Shown here: piece by piece, positions 7,229-24,551 of the stretch
How the letters are laid out: each line of letters begins with the position of its first letter
How positions within the stretch are numbered: position 1 is the first letter of the stretch
Origin: Myxococcota bacterium
GTDB taxonomy: Bacteria > Myxococcota_A > UBA796 > GCA-2862545
Direction of reading: 5' to 3'
Assembly (NCBI GenBank): GCA_039208735.1
Contig: JBCCQY010000143.1
Location: 1-24,551, forward strand
DNA length: 24,551 nucleotides
Made by a program: the position numbers and the translations under genes
Notes under the pieces: generated by a model
The model's input: the letters and a program-made list of their open reading frames with translations, nothing else
Told to the model about the DNA's origin: nothing
Databases searched by the model: none

Positions 7229-7523
7229 GCCGAGGGAGGCAATCCCCACCCGGGCACGCCACGTTGGCCCCGCGCCATCCCCAAGGGCTCGCAGACCATG
7301 ACGTCAAACTGCCGCTCCTGGCTCAGAAAGCGACGACCCGTTCCCTCGAGCACCACTTCCGCGAGCCTGGGAAGCTGCCTGTTTGACGGTAGGGCCACTT
7401 TGTGGCCCCCTACATCTCAAGTCACATGCCTCTGCCAGGCGCTCCGCAACTCGGTCTGTCCCCTATGCTACAACACTCGGGGTGAACCCGTGTAAGCGAC
7501 GGGGGGCGGGACTTGGAGGACGC

Positions 7524-10262
7524 GTGAAACGGCATGCCTATCGTGGTGAGGCCACCCGCGACGGCCACGGACAAAGCGGGACCGCAGCCCTACCTGCCAA
7601 AGCACCTAGCCACTGGTCTTTGGCCCCCCCCTCCCTCGACCGGGAGCGAGATGCCGACCGTGGGGGAAAGCTTCCCCGGCGGGTTGCCAGCGTGGCCACT
7701 GGCGAGCCCGTCCCCACCGAGGTCGCCTCGGCGATGGCTCGAATGGGGCGCGGTCAGCCCCTGCCTGGGTCAATTGCCGGACCCGATCTGTCGAATGTCC
7801 GCGTCCATCGCTCGCCTGCCGCCCGTACCGTGGCGGCCCTGGTGGGTGCACGGTCCATAGCCTTTGGTTGCCAGGTTGTGCTCGGTCAGGAAGGAGACCT
7901 GGAGCACGAGCTGGGACATGTCCGCCAGCAACGAGCCGAGGGCGTGGCCACGATTGACCGAATCACCGTCACACCCGACAAAGCCGATATGGTCTACCGG
8001 GCCTGGGTGGCCGAGTACGAGAAACGCCTGGGGAAGGGCAACCCTCTGGCTGCCGAGAAGGCGGCCGCGCGCACGCGCGCCCAGATTGGACCGCCCATGC
8101 CCTCGCGGTGGGTGGCGCCCCACCGTCGCCCCCCTCCGCCACCGCCCAAGCCGCTCGAGCCACCGGAGCCCCAGTTCAAGGTCACGCTGGCCGACGGAAC
8201 AGAGTTGGTCCTGTCCCAAAGGCAGCTCGACGCCCGGCGCCAAAAGGCGAGAAAAGAGCTTGAACGTCGTATCGCCACGCTCGAGACCTTGGTGCGCAAC
8301 GGCCGCTCCCACCAGCGGATGCTGGCGGAGAACAAGGGCGTGGGTGGCTGGTTGGTGGACTCGGTAACGGGCGCAAGGTTGCCTCCCGAGTCGATGTGGG
8401 ATGCGCCCGGTCCTACCATCCAGCAGGCCAAGCGCCTCCTGGCTGCCGGAAACTACAAAGGGGCATTGAAGGCCATCAAGGCCGGCCACCATTCCTACGC
8501 GCAGGCGGCCGTAAATGTGACCGCCTACCTTGACGAAGTCGATGTCGGCGGCCACAAACTGATCGAATACCTGGAGACGACCAGGGACATCTCCTTTTCC
8601 GTTGCCATTGCCACCGGTGCCGTGGTGGCCGCGCCCGTAGTCGCGGTTGGCCTGGCCGAAGTAGGGGTCACGGGAGCGGTGGGGACCGTCGCCACCGGCG
8701 CAGTCGTCACTGCAGGGGGGGGCATTGCGGGAGGAGGCCTACGGGGAGGGACGGCCTTGGTAGGTCAGGTGATGACCACCGGAACCGTCGACACGAAGGA
8801 GCTGAAGGATGAGACCGTGGAGGGCGCGAAGCGAGGTGCCGTCGATGCCTTCGGTTCCGTCACCGGCTACGGCGTCACCCAGGGGCTCGGTACCGGGACC
8901 ACGCTGCTGGGACGGGTGGGCGTGGGCGCCGCGTCAGGAGCGGCAGGAGGTGGCGGCAGCGCGGTTCTCGATGCCAAGCTTCGGGGGAAGAACTGGAAGC
9001 AGGCGCTCGAGGATGGTCAGCGCGGTGCCTTCCTCGGGGCGGTGTCGGGAGGCGTGGCGGGCCCGGTCGGGGGAGCCAAAATGGCCACTGCTCCTCGAGC
9101 ACTCACAGAGGGTGTGGTGGCCGGAGGAACCACGGTTGGCATCGCACTAGCGGAAGGCAAGGACATCGACGAGCAAGTCGTCAAGGACGCCTTGGGAAGC
9201 GGGGTGTCCGCGCTGGGCTCTGGGGCCGTATCCCTCACCACCACGAGCCGACGCCCGCCCAGCTCCCCCGTGCCCGCCGAGGGCCACCCCGCGGTTCGCC
9301 CGAATCCGCGGCCAGCGAACCACAACCGCATCGGACCCGTCAGCGACCCCGCGGTCCCCAGGAACCCACGACCCGCCAACGACCGGATCGGTCCACTCCA
9401 GGACCACACGGCAGAGCTCGTGGTCGAAGCCGCGAACACGAACGTGGCAGGGTCCACCGAGGCATACGTGGTCGGTGGCGAGCCATTCAACACGCTTCAT
9501 CCACCACAGTCGCCCAACGGAGTGCGACCTCGGGCCTCGGTTGGCGATGGGTTCGCGCCGGACCCTCTCCGCAACGCCTCCCTCCCGGAGGGAACCCACC
9601 GGTCGGTGCCTCCGCCTCCTCGAGAACGGCGCAGCGAGGCTGTGCGTCCTGGGGGCCCGAAGGGCCGGCGCCGTCCGGAGACGAAGAACGACCTTGACCA
9701 TGAGTCCTCCACACTCTGGGAGCTAGACACGCCCAGTCTGGACAACCTCACGAACGAACAGTTTCGCGAGTTGTACAGGCGGTCCGAGAACATCCCGAAG
9801 GAGCAAGTCCGCCCTGCCGCAGACCTCGCCAAGGACCATCCCCATCATGGTTCAGGCGGGCGCCGGCAGCGAGGCGAGAAGGGGCAATGGCCCGCCAACG
9901 CGAGCGGTTACGTCTACCAGTTGATCGACTTCCAGGGCCGGGTCATCTACATCGGCATCACCGTCGACCCAGCAAGACGCATCCAGAATCACGCCAACCC
10001 GAACAACCGGTACAGCAAGGTGTTCTATGGGATGCAGATCTTGAGGGGCGGGCTCACCGAGGTGGACGCCCGTGCGCTCGAGGCCCGGTTCCGCGATACG
10101 ACCCCCGGCGAGCTCGTAAATCGGGACTACAGCACAGTGCACGACGGTATCGACCTCCACGACGCGGCGACGACCGCCGGTGGAGGCGATCCAAAAGCCG
10201 ACGGCTCTCCCGTTATCTACGAGAATCCAAAGCTGCACCGCTATCGCTCGTCGGAGGACTGA
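7524..10262 (+). CDS. DUF4157 (eCIS core) polymorphic toxin with a Gly/Ala-rich hydrophobic middle and C-terminal GIY-YIG nuclease domain
   Basis: GQPLP...DLSNVRVH...GARSIAFGCQVVLG...LEHELGHVRQQ carries the DUF4157 HExxH. C-terminal GYVYQLIDFQGRVIYIGITVDPARRIQNH...ALEARF...LVN is GIY-YIG. GTG 7524 follows GGAGG. Confidence 0.85.
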   Translation: MKRHAYRGEATRDGHGQSGTAALPAKAPSHWSLAPPSLDRERDADRGGKLPRRVASVATGEPVPTEVASAMARMGRGQPLPGSIAGPDLSNVRVHRSPAARTVAALVGARSIAFGCQVVLGQEGDLEHELGHVRQQRAEGVATIDRITVTPDKADMVYRAWVAEYEKRLGKGNPLAAEKAAARTRAQIGPPMPSRWVAPHRRPPPPPPKPLEPPEPQFKVTLADGTELVLSQRQLDARRQKARKELERRIATLETLVRNGRSHQRMLAENKGVGGWLVDSVTGARLPPESMWDAPGPTIQQAKRLLAAGNYKGALKAIKAGHHSYAQAAVNVTAYLDEVDVGGHKLIEYLETTRDISFSVAIATGAVVAAPVVAVGLAEVGVTGAVGTVATGAVVTAGGGIAGGGLRGGTALVGQVMTTGTVDTKELKDETVEGAKRGAVDAFGSVTGYGVTQGLGTGTTLLGRVGVGAASGAAGGGGSAVLDAKLRGKNWKQALEDGQRGAFLGAVSGGVAGPVGGAKMATAPRALTEGVVAGGTTVGIALAEGKDIDEQVVKDALGSGVSALGSGAVSLTTTSRRPPSSPVPAEGHPAVRPNPRPANHNRIGPVSDPAVPRNPRPANDRIGPLQDHTAELVVEAANTNVAGSTEAYVVGGEPFNTLHPPQSPNGVRPRASVGDGFAPDPLRNASLPEGTHRSVPPPPRERRSEAVRPGGPKGRRRPETKNDLDHESSTLWELDTPSLDNLTNEQFRELYRRSENIPKEQVRPAADLAKDHPHHGSGGRRQRGEKGQWPANASGYVYQLIDFQGRVIYIGITVDPARRIQNHANPNNRYSKVFYGMQILRGGLTEVDARALEARFRDTTPGELVNRDYSTVHDGIDLHDAATTAGGGDPKADGSPVIYENPKLHRYRSSED
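9285..9395 (+). repeat. Two intragenic ~20-aa tandem repeats in the toxin linker
   Basis: HPAVRPNPRPANHNRIGP and DPAVPRNPRPANDRIGP, with a 60-nt period (9285, 9345). Confidence 0.8.
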
Positions 10263-17905: not shown

Positions 17906-19606
17906 TCACTCGGCCAAGCCGACGGCGAGGTTCAAGAGGTGGGCCCCCGGGAAGCTCTGGTCGCCCGCGCTCCCGAGCACGTTGATGAGGTACTGATAGC
18001 GGACGTCGATGCGGAAGACCTGCGCCTCGAACCCCGCGCCCACGCCGACCATAGGCCCGAGCATGGGGACCCGAGGCGCGTCCTCGTCCCACGCCTTCCC
18101 CGCGACGGCCTGTCCCCCGCCAACGCCCGCGAGTACCGTCACGTTGAGCGGAACCAGTGGATCGAACGAGGCCTCGAGCCCGGTGCTCGCCCCACCGAGG
18201 ATGCCGACGGTGGGGCTGTAGTTGACCTGCAAAGCGAGCGGCACCTGCAAGATCTTCGTGAACTCTCCCTCCGCGGGACGGAAGTTGTACTGCCAGGCCA
18301 GCCCCAGGATCGGGTTCCAGCTCGTGCCTGGGTCCCCCACGAGCGCGCTCGCACCCCCGGATATCATGAAGCGCTGGGGACGAGCTCGGGTCTGCGCCTC
18401 GACGGACTGCCGGAACTCCTTCTTGGCGGCCTGCTTCAGCTTCTCGTCCTTGGGGAGCTTGCGGAGTCGGAGCGCGTCGGCCTTCACGGGAATCAGAGCC
18501 TGGAGCAGCAGATCCCCGTCCTGCCTCACGAGCTGGGACTCGGCCACGCGCTTCGTCACCCGGGGAGCATCTGGATCTCCCGGCTTCTTTCCCGATGCGG
18601 CCAGGGCCTTGGCGGTGGCTTCCTCGTCGATGGTGTCGTGCGAGAAGACGAAGGCATCCCCCTTCTTCTCGAGGTGGCGTGTGCGCTCGGCGACGACGCG
18701 CTTCTTCTGCTTCCCGTCGGCGCCGGTGGCCGTACCGGTGAGCGACAGGGAGAACTCGTTGCCCAGAGCGCGGCGCAGTGAGAGCGTGAGGTCCTTCAGC
18801 TTCCACTCGGGGAACGCACCCGCCGCGGGGATCGTCGATTCGCCAGCCACGACGGCCTCGAACACGTCGTCGGTGGCCACCGTCACCTCGGCTTCCTGGT
18901 CCTGGGCGCCGAGGCTCTGGATCATCCGCTGGGTCTGGGCAAGGCCGTTGGCAGCCCGGCGTGCATCCTCGGCCTCCTCCTGTGCCTTCGCGATGGCGGC
19001 CGGCGTCGCACTGGAGTCCTCGCGCAGTCGCTTGGCCGCAGACTCCTTGCGCTCCGCCGCGAAGTTCGTCGTGAACACCTTGAGCGACAGGCCGCTCCGC
19101 GATGCCACGCTGGGCACGGTGCCCATCGCGACCCGGTCGCCCACCGCGAACGGGAACACGTCCTTTACCTTGGTGGTCGGCGTCTTCGACTTCTTCTTGT
19201 GGAGCACGGTCTGTGGCCCCACCCGGCCCGTCGAGCGCTGGGCGACGTGAGCCAGCTCGTGGGGAAGCAGTCGGCTGCCGTGCGGGGCGCGCTGGGCCTG
19301 CGAGCCGAGGAAGACCTGGTGGCCTACGTTCAGAGCGTCCGCGTCATGGGCCTCCACCACACGATCCGCGACCGGTCCGCGATGGACTCGCACGTGCGAC
19401 AGATCGACACCCAGGTGTGCCGAGTAGAAGGCGTTCTCCGGAGATGACAGAGGAGCGGTCCCCGTTCGCGGTCTCGAGGACGGCACGGACGCCAAACCGC
19501 TCGCGAATCGGTCCGCCTCCCGCTCGAGCGTCTGGGGGCTCGCGCGGCTGGGGGCCGGACGGGACGCGCCTGGGGCTTCGTCTTTCGTTGCTCGGTGACC
19601 ACCCAT
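17906..19606 (-). CDS. DUF4157 (eCIS core) protein with a C-terminal predicted 8-stranded outer-membrane beta-barrel
   Basis: LEREADR...PLS...HLGVDLSHVRVH...ADALNVGHQVFLG...LLPHELAHVAQ. The last ~155 aa contain eight amphipathic strand-like segments. Confidence 0.8.
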   Translation of the reverse strand: MGGHRATKDEAPGASRPAPSRASPQTLEREADRFASGLASVPSSRPRTGTAPLSSPENAFYSAHLGVDLSHVRVHRGPVADRVVEAHDADALNVGHQVFLGSQAQRAPHGSRLLPHELAHVAQRSTGRVGPQTVLHKKKSKTPTTKVKDVFPFAVGDRVAMGTVPSVASRSGLSLKVFTTNFAAERKESAAKRLREDSSATPAAIAKAQEEAEDARRAANGLAQTQRMIQSLGAQDQEAEVTVATDDVFEAVVAGESTIPAAGAFPEWKLKDLTLSLRRALGNEFSLSLTGTATGADGKQKKRVVAERTRHLEKKGDAFVFSHDTIDEEATAKALAASGKKPGDPDAPRVTKRVAESQLVRQDGDLLLQALIPVKADALRLRKLPKDEKLKQAAKKEFRQSVEAQTRARPQRFMISGGASALVGDPGTSWNPILGLAWQYNFRPAEGEFTKILQVPLALQVNYSPTVGILGGASTGLEASFDPLVPLNVTVLAGVGGGQAVAGKAWDEDAPRVPMLGPMVGVGAGFEAQVFRIDVRYQYLINVLGSAGDQSFPGAHLLNLAVGLAE

Positions 19607-19769: not shown

Positions 19770-19820
19770 GCTTCGCCTGGCGCACGATAGTCTTTCCAAA
19801 GCGCTTCGCCTGGCGCACGA
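19770..19820. repeat. Perfect 18-bp direct repeat GCTTCGCCTGGCGCACGA
   Basis: Copies at 19770-19787 and 19803-19820 (33-bp period), intergenic, upstream of the DUF4157-barrel gene. Confidence 0.9.
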
Positions 19821-20290: not shown

Positions 20291-20950
20291 GCCGACCTCC
20301 TCGCACGTCGCATGTGCACAGCGTTCTAGGCAGCAGGAATGGACGTGGTGTGTACGCCGCTTGAGGAAACGATGGGAACGGTGCAGCGGGGGAGGGGATA
20401 GCCGACGCACATGGTGGGCGCGCACCGGTCGCGGCGTCACCTGGACCGTCGGCACCGTTCGTGCGGTCATCGGACGAAGATACAGCGGATCGCCTGATGA
20501 TCCGAGCGTGCGAGGCGGCGGTAGATCCGAGGGGGTCCATCTGCAGCCCGAGGTGGAACTCGCGGAGATTCGACCCCACGGAGTCCGACACGGGGGAGTG
20601 GCCGCAGAGCGCGGTGCAGGGAGCAGCGCAGCGCATCGTGCACCGCCACGCCCTGTCGTACGAGACACGGGACAACCGGCCCCAGGACCGGGTGGCGGTG
20701 AGGGCCGTGCGGCTGATCCCGGGGGCTGGTGACGCTCAGTTGTATGGTCCCGCGTTCATCTCCCAGGTCCGTCCCGGTTTGATCTCCCGGTGGCGAGGTT
20801 GGGATGCGCCGAGAAGCGGGAGTTCCTCCAGCTCCTCGTCCACAAGGCCACCGTCCACAGAGGCCGCGTGGACGCGAGCTATACGATGGCCGCCACACCC
20901 GCCGCTACCTCGCCCAGGTCACCCGCAACCTGTAGATTCTCTGTTGGTCG

Positions 20951-21952
20951 TCAAGTCCCGCTGCTGTTTCTTTTTGGTTGATAGAAACGTGAGGGATCAA
21001 AATGGGTTTCAGTACGCAACATCCCGTGGATGGTGTGCAGCAGCTTGCGTGCCACGGCGACGTAGGCCACAAGCTGTGCCTTGTTGCGGTCCTTTGTCAG
21101 GACACGATGAAACTCTTGGATTTCCGGAACCCATCGAACGGTGTTCAGCGCGGCCATGTGGAGTGTCGCGCGTAGGTATCTCGAACCCATTTTGCTGATG
21201 TGCCGCGGGCGGTCGCGGTCGCCTGACTGGTTGGACCGCGGATCGAGGCCCGCCTGTGCCACGAGCTGCCGCGCGGTGAGGTCAGCGGGCATACAGCCGA
21301 GTTCGGCAAGGATCTCCACAGCGGTGACCTCGGCGATGCCCTTGATGGAGCAGAGGAGGTCCATGCGATCACTGACCTGATGGTCTTGCCGTGCGTACTC
21401 GACCAATCGATAGCGTAAGCCAGCGATTCGCTCATCGAGGCTCGCAATGCTGTTCTCGATGTCGGCCAGGAGTTCAGCAGGAAGAACACCGGTGGCCTCG
21501 GTCGACTGAAGCCGATTCTTCTCACGTGTTCGGTCGTTGACGAGCGTGCGGATTCGTCTCGCCCAGCTCCGCATGTTGAGCGCGTGCTCCGAGGGTGGCT
21601 GCCACGGATCGCCGACCCTATCGTGAGCCATCCGGGCCAGAGCGTGGGCGTCGACGCGGTCCGTCTTCGAGCGCACCAGGCCACGGCTTGCGTAGCCTTT
21701 GGCCGCCCCCGGGTTGATGTACCGAACATCGATTCGACGTACCTTGTGCAGTCCAATGGCGAGCGCGAGTCCATAGGGCCCTGTCGATTCCAGCGCGACC
21801 GAGATTGGCCCACGGTTGCGACGGATCGCCTTGATGAGCGCACGTCTTCCGTGAAGGGAATTCTCGAATACCTGGACCGTAGCGTGCCCGTGTCGCGCCA
21901 CGTGGAATTGCTTGCTGCTGACATCGATGCCGATGGCGGCCGGTTTGGCCAT
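20951..21952 (-). CDS. IS110-family DEDD recombinase/transposase, intact (333 aa)
   Basis: IGIDVS, LESTG, KTDRVDA (DEDD); SIKGIAEVTA, AGLDP, NQSG (catalytic Ser loop), ISKMG, AVARKL. AAGGAG RBS before ATG 21952. Confidence 0.96.
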   Translation of the reverse strand: MAKPAAIGIDVSSKQFHVARHGHATVQVFENSLHGRRALIKAIRRNRGPISVALESTGPYGLALAIGLHKVRRIDVRYINPGAAKGYASRGLVRSKTDRVDAHALARMAHDRVGDPWQPPSEHALNMRSWARRIRTLVNDRTREKNRLQSTEATGVLPAELLADIENSIASLDERIAGLRYRLVEYARQDHQVSDRMDLLCSIKGIAEVTAVEILAELGCMPADLTARQLVAQAGLDPRSNQSGDRDRPRHISKMGSRYLRATLHMAALNTVRWVPEIQEFHRVLTKDRNKAQLVAYVAVARKLLHTIHGMLRTETHFDPSRFYQPKRNSSGT

Positions 21953-22006
21953 AAAGGCTCCTTCGAGGTATGGGCCGTGTGGGTCCCGACCCTGGACCAA
22001 CCGCCC

Positions 22007-22340
22007 AGGCCAACCTTACGAACGCGTGGTCATGCCACCAGATTCTCTTCGGCCTACAAGGGGCGCTGAGGGCGGGGCTCACTCTACGAAAGACAGCCTC
22101 TTGGGCTCGGTGACGGCGAGCTACACCCATCCGGCTCCCGCATTTTATCGTGGGGTAAGGCTCCCGACGGCGCCGCTAATCTACAGGCCAGGCGGACAGA
22201 CCGCCTCGGCTCGGCTCAGGCTCCCGCCGGGAGCAAACAGCCCATCATGGTCAGTAGGCTGAGACGGGGTATGGTTCGCTCGGCTAGACATCGGCCCCCT
22301 CGTCGAGGGGTCCGTTGCCAAGCCTCCCTCACCATACCCA
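22007..22340 (-). ncRNA. Predicted IS110 bridge RNA: 5' stem-loops, two target-binding loops and one donor-binding loop
   Basis: DBL 22055-22007 (guide AGAGAATCT equals the element right end; CGTAAG). TBL-B 22128-22070 (ACCGAGCC / TCGTAG). TBL-A 22234-22160 (GCCGAGCC / CCTGTAG). Each loop has a closing stem and an internal hairpin. Confidence 0.78.
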
Positions 22341-22415
22341 GAACGTATAAGGCTCGGGCTAGACCCGGGTGAAGCCTGGATTGAATGGGTATAGGCGGTC
22401 TGCAACGAGGTGGTC

Positions 22416-22742
22416 ATGAAAGGCCGACGGTTGCGGAATCGAACGGAAGCTCGGCGTTTGCTGAAGGAATGGGAAGCATCGGGGCAGCCGATGCGAAAGT
22501 GGTGCGAATCCCGCGGTCTGTCGTGGGGTTCGATGGCGCAGCATCGACGGTTTTGGCTCGCAGACCAAGCGAAGGCCAAGGCCGAGAAGGTCGACTTCGT
22601 CGAGGTCCTGCCGACGTCGGTGCCGTCGGCCCAGCGTGCGGTTCGCTATCGGATGTTTGTGGGGGCTGGGGTGCTCGAAGTCGGGGACAACTTAGACGAG
22701 GACACGTTGCGCCGTTTGTTGCGGGTGATGAACACGTGCTGA
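22416..22742 (+). CDS. tnpA: IS66 accessory protein TnpA
   Basis: EWEASGQPMRKWCESRGLS...FVEV...TLRRLLRVM; overlaps the tnpB start. Confidence 0.85.
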   Translation: MKGRRLRNRTEARRLLKEWEASGQPMRKWCESRGLSWGSMAQHRRFWLADQAKAKAEKVDFVEVLPTSVPSAQRAVRYRMFVGAGVLEVGDNLDEDTLRRLLRVMNTC

Positions 22743-22982
22743 GCTTCCCGCCCTCTGTACGAATTTGGTTGTGGCCGGTGCCCGTGGACATGCGAAAGTC
22801 GTTTCGGGGCTTGTCCGGGGTGGTGCGGGAGCGGGCGTTTCCATCTTCCCGCCCATGAAGCGGAACAGAAGGTGTCGCTAACCGCAGGCCAGTTGCTCCT
22901 GATGCTCGAAGGATTGGACGTGGCCACGCTGGTGCGCCGCGTGCGCCACCATCGCGAGCCGACCTCGAACGACGAAAACTGA
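22736..22982 (+). pseudogene. tnpB: IS66 TnpB with an internal deletion and frameshift
   Basis: MLSFPPSVRIWLWPVPVDMRKSFRGLSGVVRE joins at ~22830, out of frame, to GRFHLP...QLLLMLEGLD. The central 'HLFVF..RRD.VK.L.WD..G...KRLE' block is missing. Confidence 0.85.
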
Positions 22983-23046: not shown

Positions 23047-24551
23047 GTGACCGACCGCCAACGCATCGCCGAACTGCAGGCCCAGAACGCCGCGCTGCAA
23101 CAGTTGCTCGAGCAACAAGTTGCACAGAACGGCACGTTGACGGCCCAGGTCCAGCAGCTGTTGGTGCTGGTCGAAGGATTGCAGAAGCAGCTGGCCGCGT
23201 GGCTTCCCAAGCCCGCAGCCCCCGAACCGGTCGCCGCCCCTGCTCCACCCGTTGCGAATCCGGCGGATGTGCCCTCCCTGTTGGCGCCTCCCGAACCGCC
23301 GTTGCGCGCACCGTCGAAGCGACGGAAACCCAAACGGGTGCCGCTCGACGCCGCGTTGCCGCGAGACATCGAGACCTACTCGGTCGAGGCCTGTCCTTCG
23401 TGTGGCAGCGAGGACTTGGCGGCGCTGGACACGGAAGTCAGCGAACGGCTGGCCTACATCCGCGCCCACGTTCGTGTTCGCCGCATCGAGCGTCCCAAGG
23501 TGCGCTGTCGCAGCTGCCAGACGTTGTCGACGGCCCCGATGCCGCCCGTCGCAGTGCCCCAAGGGCAGCTCGACCCCACGATGTTGGCCCATCTGGCCTA
23601 CAGCAAATGTGGCCTGCACCTGCCGTTGAAACGCATTGCGGAAGATCTGGCGAACCAAGGCGTGACGCTGCCTTCCTCGACGATGTCAGATGCCATGGGG
23701 CACACCGCCGACTTGCTCGAACCGGTCTACGACGCCCTGCTGGCCCGTCTGTTTGCGTCCCCGCTGCTGCATGCCGATGGGACTGGATTGACCGTGCTTC
23801 GACCCGGTCAGAAAGGACCGTACCGCGGCCAGTTCCTGGCCGTCTGCAACGACGACGTCACGGCCTACGTCTTCACGCCATCCAAGCATGGCGAACACCT
23901 GACCGCCTTTTTTGGCGTCGGGTCGCCCGACGGCTACGAAGGCTTCCTCGTCGCCGATGCCGCCTCCAACATGAACCGGCTGTACGACGAGGGCCGGATC
24001 CTTGAATGTGGGTGCTGGTTTCACGCCCGCGACAAGTTTGTGGAAGCCCGACCCAACGCCCCGTTCGCCGCCGAAGAGGGCATTGCCTGGATTGGCGCCT
24101 TGTTCGAAGTCGAACGGTCGGCCGACGAGGCGGACGAAACCGCCGAAGAGCGTCGCGCCCGACGGCGACGCGAATCGGTGCCCATCCTTCACGAATTTGA
24201 ACGCTGGATGGACAGCGTGGTGCCGCGGTTTGCACCCGACGAAGCGATCGCCAAGGCCATTCGCTACGTGCGCACCCATCGCGAGGCGTTGTGGCGCTTC
24301 GTCGAACACGGCACCGTGCCCTTGACCAACAACCTGGCGGAACGCGAGCTGGGCGTCATCGGCCGGGGTCGCAAGGCCTTTCTGTTCGCTGGCAGCGACG
24401 CCGGCGCCCCTCGATTGGCCGTGCTTCACACCGTCGTTCGGACCTGCCAGCGCCTGCGTGCCGATCCGTTTGCTTACTTGTGCGACGTCCTGCCCCGCTT
24501 GAGCGTGATGCCCGCGAACCGTGGCCTTCGCCTGGCTGACCTGACCCCGCA
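23047..24551 (+). CDS. tnpC: IS66 DDE transposase TnpC, truncated by the window end
   Basis: Not in the ORF track; read by hand. Coiled coil, CPSC...CRSC Zn finger, LHADGT, LVADAAS, CWFHARDKF, LTNNLAERELG, GRKAFLFAGS, DPFAYLCDVL. Confidence 0.95.
   Translation, partial: MTDRQRIAELQAQNAALQQLLEQQVAQNGTLTAQVQQLLVLVEGLQKQLAAWLPKPAAPEPVAAPAPPVANPADVPSLLAPPEPPLRAPSKRRKPKRVPLDAALPRDIETYSVEACPSCGSEDLAALDTEVSERLAYIRAHVRVRRIERPKVRCRSCQTLSTAPMPPVAVPQGQLDPTMLAHLAYSKCGLHLPLKRIAEDLANQGVTLPSSTMSDAMGHTADLLEPVYDALLARLFASPLLHADGTGLTVLRPGQKGPYRGQFLAVCNDDVTAYVFTPSKHGEHLTAFFGVGSPDGYEGFLVADAASNMNRLYDEGRILECGCWFHARDKFVEARPNAPFAAEEGIAWIGALFEVERSADEADETAEERRARRRRESVPILHEFERWMDSVVPRFAPDEAIAKAIRYVRTHREALWRFVEHGTVPLTNNLAERELGVIGRGRKAFLFAGSDAGAPRLAVLHTVVRTCQRLRADPFAYLCDVLPRLSVMPANRGLRLADLTP

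What the first reader, a model, noticed from the sequence alone, without database searches (positions are those of the whole stretch)
20924..22380. IS110 appears to target the terminal inverted repeat of an IS66
Excising 20934-22351 with one core retained joins ...CGCAACCT-GT-AG-GCTCGGGCTAGACCCGGG... on the plus strand. This gives a GTA-starting sequence ~68 bp upstream of IS66 tnpA. GTA(A/G) starts and that approximate distance are typical of IS66 left IRs, and no other convincing IRL lies between 22352 and tnpA. Both bridge-RNA target loops encode GTAG and CCGAGC, i.e. the IR itself. Inference: an RNA-guided element parasitising IS66 ends, analogous to IS4321/IS5075 in Tn21 IRs. Two loops could cover IRL/IRR or IS66 variants, and the insertion would immobilise the host IS. 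Alternatively the site is a GTAG-type REP-like hairpin (CTCGGG-CTAGA-CCCGGG).
Basis: partly seen in the sequence, partly recalled or inferred. Interest (0 to 1): 0.8.

Follow-up and report, generated by a model that had tools for sequence, protein, structure and literature searches.

The report
RNA-guided element inside IS66 end
A small RNA-guided jumping gene has landed in the tip of another jumping gene at a spot that one of its two target-guide loops spells out; landing in other mobile elements' ends is a known habit, while a guide RNA with two target loops is unusual.

Summary
An IS621-like IS110 (20934-22351, CT core) does split the left end of an IS66. Uninterrupted copies of that end exist, and the right end matches at 21 of 23 nt.

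Three parts of the reading fail:
- There is no CGCAACCT duplication.
- The IS66 end probably starts two bases earlier: CT precedes 14 of 14 ends.
- Only loop 1 encodes the site (11 of 14; 13 with wobble). In loop 2 the 'CCGAGC' is scaffold, and its guide fits 5 of 14.

Loop 1's inner 12-mer occurs three times uninterrupted in the 9.4-Mb genome, each at an IS66-type end, and it is not a multi-copy repeat in 182 related genomes. Against a dedicated IS66 hunter: there is one full insertion, and the 69% and 50% relatives sit in other targets, each matched by its own loop 1.

Verdict: a known habit (IS4321-type), on a bridge RNA with a duplicated target loop, which I did not find in print. This scan has noted both features before on other DNA. 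Nothing here is shown experimentally.

The parts
20806..20929 (+). Remnant of the 3' end of a gene found at three other contigs, next to a tRNA-end-like sequence on C266 (probably an integrase/recombinase; label recalled, not tested). Homology stops just before the CT.
   Evidence: X2 loose end at 20929
20930..20933 (+). Outer tip of the IS66 left end (CT + GT); also the right half of the IS110 target
   Evidence: CT at 14 of 14 ends of this IS66 subgroup
20934..20935 (-). IS110 core dinucleotide (CT on the sense strand), right-end copy
   Evidence: same boundary in C145 and G024 copies
20936..20954 (-). IS110 right end: 15 nt after the stop codon, with a -35-like TTGACG at 20954-20949
   Evidence: 17-nt spacing to a -10-like hexamer across the predicted circle junction, read from the sequence
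20951..21952 (-). IS110 recombinase, 333 aa; D10, E55, D98, D101 and S243 invariant in 26 homologues
   Evidence: matches ISCro4 (E 1.8e-25) and IS621 (E 1.4e-23) transposases
22008..22055 (-). Donor-binding loop: left guide 22048-22040 is identical to the element's right end plus core (9 of 9); right guide near 22023-22015
   Evidence: (weak model hit, E 0.26)
22069..22128 (-). Target loop 2 (ancestral position, next to the donor loop): guides 22116-22110 and 22092-22086; does not fit this site; target unknown
   Evidence: (E 2.7e-5)
22176..22219 (-). Target loop 1 (extra, upstream): left guide 22215-22209, right guide 22189-22183 plus AG; spells the IS66 tip
   Evidence: model hit is weak (E 0.42)
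22267..22339 (-). 5' stem-loop of the predicted bridge RNA (36-nt arms, 75% complementary)
22350..22351 (-). IS110 core dinucleotide, left-end copy
22352..22368 (+). Remainder of the IS66 left inverted repeat; left half of the IS110 target
22410..22742 (+). IS66 tnpA-position ORF (ATG at 22416; no Pfam hit; 38% to the ORF of the C158 IS66)
22736..22982 (+). IS66 tnpB, broken: about 119 bp shorter at ~22834 than copies in runs X2 and X4
23047..24551 (+). IS66 tnpC; continues on C36, where the right end lies about 90 nt past the window

Best explanation
An IS621-type IS110 excises as a circle, which joins a promoter across its ends and transcribes a bridge RNA from the 397-nt left end (inferred from Durrant 2024). 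This RNA has a 5' hairpin, two target loops and one donor loop. Loop 1 pairs with both strands of the first 12 nt of this IS66 subgroup's ends, and the recombinase inserts the circle at the CT core 4 nt inside the tip, without duplication. IS66 ends are this element's best and probably regular landing sites. Loop 2 is the older loop and now carries another or a decayed guide. Shown from sequence: boundaries, empty-site copies, and the guide-site match with its covariation in relatives. Inferred: expression, pairing, excision, and any effect on IS66 mobility.
For: - Uninterrupted ends at C36:68454 and in run X3.
- Loop 1 against its own site: window 6/7+5/7 (6+7 with wobble), C145 7/7+3/7, G024 6/7+6/7; cross-pairs score at most 8 of 14.
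- The register holds in single-loop relatives: 15 of 19 rows with both site halves and one called loop score at least 9 of 14. The loop scaffold covaries: 85.6% of cells paired, 0 of 500 shuffles as high.
- 3 of 3 perfect inner matches in the genome are IS66-type ends.
- Both variable positions of the end consensus face a guide G that can wobble. This is weak support (about 1 in 4 by chance).
- A contig of run X2 (another study) carries the IS110 end, and its match extends 5 nt into the flank (from 20929) before 296 unlike bases. This suggests a second insertion with the same right half-site.
Against: - Only one complete insertion is seen; 1 of 7 known ends in the genome is occupied.
- X2 shows one half-site only, and its flank was not printed.
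- Close relatives use other targets; IS66 tnpC lies beside the IS110 in 4 of 198 loci, which are 2 places, one of them the reverse nesting.
- Over all 14 positions, 18 genomic sites score as well as the occupied site.
- Loop 1 scores weakly against the model (E 0.42), and the whole region folds no better than shuffles (z 0.14).
- The left guide lies in a short tandem repeat of the scaffold motif, so it could have arisen by slippage.
Confidence: 0.65

Rival explanations
1. Loop 1 did guide the insertion, but it is not an IS66-adapted guide. It drifted (left half by slippage, right half inherited from relatives that use CT-ACAG sites) and happened to match an IS66 tip, where the insertion was harmless.
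For: - A right half-site beginning ACAG occurs in distant relatives with no IS66 tnpC hit in their loci (L024, L049, L112).
- The guide differs between the window and C145 copies in one genome, so retargeting is fast.
- One full insertion only; the scan reads very many IS110 copies, so some chance cases are expected.
Against: The guide's inner 12 nt coincide with the terminal 12 nt of a co-resident IS. A random site falls within 10 nt of one of the 7 ends with probability about 1.5e-5 (my arithmetic). The X2 half-site repeats the flank.
Confidence: 0.25
2. One reading: both loops encode the IS66 repeat and cover left and right ends or variants.
For: The letters CCGAGC and GTAG occur in both loops. 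In G024 and L180 the two loops do cover variants of one target.
Against: Loop 2's CGAGCC and GTAG are also present in C145 and G024, which are not in IS66 ends. The motif aligns with the core, handshake and inner stem. In either valid register loop 2 scores 5.5-8 of 14 on all seven ends.
Confidence: 0.05
3. The target is a GTAG-type REP-like hairpin that merely resembles an IS66 end.
For: The site resembles the IS621 target (7 of 11 with ATCAGGCCTAC). The end contains a small GGG/CCC hairpin.
Against: All 4 copies of CTRTAGGCTCGG in G000 are IS66-type ends. Across 182 genomes the maximum is 6 per genome, similar to the reversed control. The sequence is mirrored at the IS66 right end.
Confidence: 0.04
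4. Assembly artefact, or reverse order (an IS66 inserted beside an IS110).
For: The assembly is a 288-contig MAG. Reverse nesting exists in G024.
Against: One contig of run X1 (possibly the source) spans 20840-22362 with no differences and at flank depth. The IS66 tip is split on both sides of intact IS110 ends.
Confidence: 0.01

Closest known systems
IS621 / ISCro4 (IS622) bridge recombinases, IS110 group (Durrant 2024, PMC11208160; Perry 2025, 10.1101/2025.05.14.653916)
   Same: DEDD plus serine domains, CT core, long left end with 5' hairpin, target loop and donor loop, junction promoter, and guides of about 7 nt on each side of the core.
   Different: There are two target loops instead of one (about 270 nt from the left boundary to the donor-loop anchor, against about 70-140 nt in single-loop relatives). 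The protein is distant (E about 1e-24). The target is an IS end, not a REP.
IS4321 / IS5075 (IS1111 group) in Tn21-family terminal inverted repeats (seen only as a reference title and passages in PMC11187229; Partridge and Hall 2003 not read)
   Same: An IS110-family element inserted at a fixed base in another mobile element's terminal repeat.
   Different: This element has IS110-group layout (guide upstream, 15-nt right end) and its host is an IS66. One full insertion is seen, against nearly 900 for IS4321.
ISEc21 (IS110 group) targeting IS3-family transposase codons (PMC11187229, passages)
   Same: An IS110-group element guided into another IS; natural redirection in a 72% relative (ISMch6).
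   Different: Its target is a coding motif, not the terminal repeat.
IS66 family (features as stated in PMC11946415, passages)
   Same: tnpA-tnpB-tnpC order, IS66 Pfam domains, a terminal repeat of about 23 bp.
   Different: The ends read CT-[G/A]TAGG rather than GTAAGCG, and 0 of 5 two-ended copies show an 8-bp duplication.

Membership tests
IS110 group (IS621-like) | N-terminal DEDD domain PF01548 and C-terminal PF02371 with conserved serine | tested here: met
IS110 group (IS621-like) | Short core at both ends, no target duplication beyond it | tested here: met
   AG/CT at 20934-35 and 22350-51; uninterrupted target at C36:68454
IS110 group (IS621-like) | Left end much longer than right end, carrying the bridge RNA | tested here: met
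   397 nt against 15 nt; loops placed by model R1
IS110 group (IS621-like) | Loops complementary to target and donor that covary with the sites | tested here: met
   donor left guide 9 of 9
IS110 group (IS621-like) | One target loop plus one donor loop | tested here: not met
   two target-type loops
IS110 group (IS621-like) | RNA is expressed, binds the recombinase, circle forms | not testable with these tools
   no RNA holder listed
IS1111 group (IS4321/IS5075) | Long non-coding region downstream of the transposase | tested here: not met
   right end is 15 nt
IS1111 group (IS4321/IS5075) | Sub-terminal inverted repeats | not tested
   none among the 25 longest inverted repeats listed; no dedicated test
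Terminal-repeat-targeting IS110-family elements | Insertion inside another element's terminal repeat, encoded by the guide | tested here: met
Terminal-repeat-targeting IS110-family elements | Repeated independent insertions at the same base | tested here: inconclusive
   one full site, one half-site in run X2; relatives elsewhere
IS66 | tnpA, tnpB, tnpC organisation | tested here: met
   tnpB broken; the tnpA-position ORF has no Pfam hit
IS66 | 20-30 bp terminal inverted repeats | tested here: met
   21 of 23
IS66 | Ends start GTAAGCG | tested here: not met
   CT-[G/A]T[A/G]GG at 14 of 14 ends
IS66 | 8-bp target duplication | tested here: not met
   0 of 5 two-ended copies at either boundary; control GTA-type IS66 copies show it in 8 of 8
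GTAG-type REP | Many extragenic copies independent of a transposon | tested here: not met

The most novel reading that the evidence does not exclude
A natural two-target bridge RNA. Duplicating the target loop lets an IS110 keep an old guide while a new upstream loop is retargeted, here to the terminal 12 nt of a CT-ended, duplication-free IS66 subgroup. Both loops are functional on one RNA, so loop duplication is a route to retargeting and a natural model for multiplexed bridge editing.
Probability: 0.3. Interest if true: 0.7.

Novelty: new variant of a known kind. Interest (0 to 1): 0.45.

Why it matters
It adds IS66 tips to the mobile-element ends used by bridge-RNA recombinases, but that habit is known. 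The more useful point is the architecture. Three related elements carry two target loops, and the upstream loop tracks the insertion site in each. If both loops work, one RNA can address two targets, which bears on how these guides get reprogrammed in nature and on multiplexing bridge editors. The test is a standard plasmid assay. The host IS66 subgroup (CT-extended ends, no 8-bp duplication) also departs from the family description.

Tried and rejected
- Single-protein scan of genome contigs found no relative.
- Viral contigs gave only 28-32% relatives and no IS66-end motif.
- Of 49 family genomes, 2 had a close IS110. Phylum (16 of 401) and class (17 of 182) searches added none above about 40% identity.
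- A junction pattern search in 182 genomes gave 19 places: one is the window, one is a guide inside L212, and the other 17 were not examined.
- No RNA holder listed.
- No joint skipping the IS110 was listed in four runs; contigs cannot show absence.
- The minimum-energy fold of the left end was uninformative.
- The best genomic matches to loop 2's predicted target (one 15/16, four 14/16) showed no shared flanks by eye.
- The empty-site reading-frame test to place the IS66 boundary was inconclusive.
- The plasmid search gave only IS66 relatives below 60% identity (34-36% in the 25 rows listed).
- L006's upstream region is a palindromic chimera and was not used for loop 1.
- The C20 IS66 fragment has no recognisable terminus and was left out of the 14 ends. 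G062's second end was found with a CT-containing pattern and was left out of that count too.
- No structure or complex prediction was run.

Full report
OBSERVATION. The window is the whole contig G000:C143. An IS110 transposase lies on the minus strand at 20951-21952 (PF01548 and PF02371; catalytic D10, E55, D98, D101 and S243 invariant in 26 homologues). An IS66 (tnpA-position ORF, tnpB, tnpC) runs to the contig end on the plus strand. AG cores at 20934-35 and 22350-51 bound the IS110. The same boundaries appear in a 69% copy on C145 and in 50% copies in G024.

THE TARGET IS AN IS66 LEFT END. An uninterrupted copy of this end, with the next ~80 nt up to the tnpA start, lies at C36:68454, and another shows in run X3. 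C36 overlaps the window end by 65 identical bases and gives the right end about 90 nt beyond the window. It matches the rebuilt left end at 21 of 23 nt. The join lies inside a repeat, so the right flank is probable, not certain. Neither candidate right end (C36, C206) is followed by CGCAACCT.

THE IS66 END. All 14 ends of this subgroup found with patterns that did not contain CT are preceded by CT: 7 in G000, 3 in G024, 2 in G444, 1 in G062 and 1 in X3. Homology of the left flank to three other contigs stops just before the CT, which suggests the CT belongs to the element. A target preference is not excluded (one search was inconclusive). None of 5 two-ended copies has an 8-bp duplication at either boundary. 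Ordinary GTA-type IS66 copies in G009 and G024 have it in 8 of 8 cases, from three distinct elements. The window's tnpB is about 119 bp shorter than copies in X2 and X4, so this IS66 is probably defective anyway.

THE GUIDE RNA. The 397-nt left end holds a 5' hairpin, two target-type loops and a donor loop whose left guide equals the element's right end plus core (9 of 9). To fix the register I aligned the loop next to the donor loop from 41 relatives, window excluded (41 of the 69 segments, leaving out mis-anchored, long-looped and the closest ones). Its stems covary (85.6% of cells paired, 0 of 500 shuffles as high; kin are not independent). In single-loop relatives the 7 nt before the constant C-(U)-GAG-CC motif and the 7 nt before AG match the insertion site: 15 of 19 rows with both half-sites and one called loop reach at least 9 of 14, minimum 7 (the script picks the best parse per loop). 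The model finds loop 2 at 22069-22128 (E 2.7e-5), and, weakly, the donor loop (E 0.26) and loop 1 (E 0.42). It aligns loop 2's CCGAGC with the constant motif, so loop 2's guide fits the site at only 5 of 14. Loop 1 fits at 11 of 14, or 13 with G-T wobble. In C145 and G024, loop 1 changes with the site (10 and 12 of 14), with cross-pairs at most 8. Two modules were called in 6 of 60 rows, and the upstream loop fits better in all 6, two of them judged on the left half only. In G024 and L180 both loops read variants of one repeat.

SPECIFICITY. The inner 12-mer (6 + core + 4) occurs 3 times uninterrupted in the genome: C206, C36 and C189, all IS66-type ends (941,376 CT sites scored). The choice of 6+4 is mine; over all 14 positions 18 genomic sites equal or beat the occupied one. 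The motif is not a multi-copy REP: at most 6 copies per genome in 182 genomes, like the reversed control. In run X2 (another study) a contig carries the IS110 end with the match starting at 20929, five bases into the flank, then 296 unlike bases. This suggests a second insertion with the same right half-site; its other side is unseen.

AGAINST A DEDICATED IS66 HUNTER. One of 7 known ends is occupied. Close relatives use other targets. IS66 tnpC was found beside the IS110 in 4 of 198 loci (with repeats; many are short). These are 2 places: the window, and a G024 copy in which a different IS66 inserted into the IS110's 5' hairpin with an 8-bp duplication. The left guide sits in a tandem repeat of the scaffold motif, and ACAG right half-sites occur in distant relatives, so a neutral origin is possible.

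MECHANISM. By analogy with IS621 (inference): excision gives a circle with a junction promoter (TTGACG, 17 nt, TACGTT, read from the sequence). The bridge RNA's loop 1 pairs with both strands of the IS66 tip, and recombination at CT places the element 4 nt inside the tip. Splitting the tip should block IS66 end recognition until the IS110 excises (inference, untested).

LITERATURE SEEN.
- PMC11208160: abstract, passages, sections 5, 6, 12 and part 1 of 2 of section 43. It describes one target and one donor loop, and 'IS66' does not occur.
- PMC11187229: passages and section 13, covering ISEc21 and IS4321; 'IS66' does not occur.
- 10.1101/2025.05.14.653916: passages.
- 10.64898/2026.10.21.760802: passages and section 8.
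- 10.64898/2026.08.14.744561: a term search with no hits.
- PMC11946415: passages on IS66 features.
Searches listed no title or abstract start on an IS110 in IS66 ends or on a two-target-loop bridge RNA; most listed papers were seen only as listings. One search found nothing on CT-ended IS66. ISfinder, subscription papers, figures (Durrant Fig. 6d, Extended Data Fig. 10c) and supplements (PMC ones not opened, bioRxiv ones closed) were not seen and may hold such cases. Unchecked notes of this scan report IS110-family elements in IS66-derived MITE, IS256 and IS3 ends, and a two-target-loop RNA, in other genomes.

VERDICT. The habit is known; the two-target-loop RNA and the CT-ended IS66 subgroup are the unusual parts. 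Interest 0.45.

Noticed in passing
L189/L204, L192, L202, L203/L253, L205; window 20930: An IS66 subgroup (tnpC 48-63% to the window's) whose ends read CT-[G/A]TAGG and show no 8-bp duplication in 5 of 5 two-ended copies; ordinary IS66 in G009 and G024 do show it.
   Followed up: partly
L285:851-3346 (G024): Reverse nesting: a GTA-type IS66 inserted into the 5' hairpin of an IS110 relative's bridge-RNA region, with an 8-bp duplication.
   Followed up: yes
L002, L005, L174, L180, L214/L115: Relatives with long left ends sit in tandem CTCCGTG/CTCTGTG-type repeats; in G024 and L180 the two target loops read variants of that repeat.
   Followed up: partly
L010, L012, L014, L017, L173, L187 and others: Many 35-40% single-loop relatives insert at GC-CT-AAC sites, which look like integron attC ends (label recalled, not tested).
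   Followed up: no
L003 (G000:C145:7266-8249): Second IS110 copy in this genome, 69% identical, with one internal TAG stop, a retargeted loop 1 and a different site.
   Followed up: yes
G000 C36:68454, C189:15570, C206, C266, C20, C158: The IS66 family in this genome is largely decayed: truncated ends, internal fragments and one more distant copy.
   Followed up: partly
window 20806-20929: Fragment of a gene 3' end that recurs on C266, C52 and C21; on C266 it is followed by a tRNA-end-like sequence, suggesting remains of an integrated island.
   Followed up: partly
window 20900-20910 and G000:C36 near 69720: The two outer flanks of the IS66 share an inverted 11-nt match about 20 and 5 nt from the tips; possibly chance.
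   Followed up: no
window 17906-19606 (-): 566-aa protein with an eCIS core domain (PF13699); the 959-aa ORF at 7383-10262 has a similar-looking N-terminal motif.
   Followed up: no
window 19770-19820: Two exact 18-nt direct repeats 33 nt apart, in an intergenic stretch.
   Followed up: no
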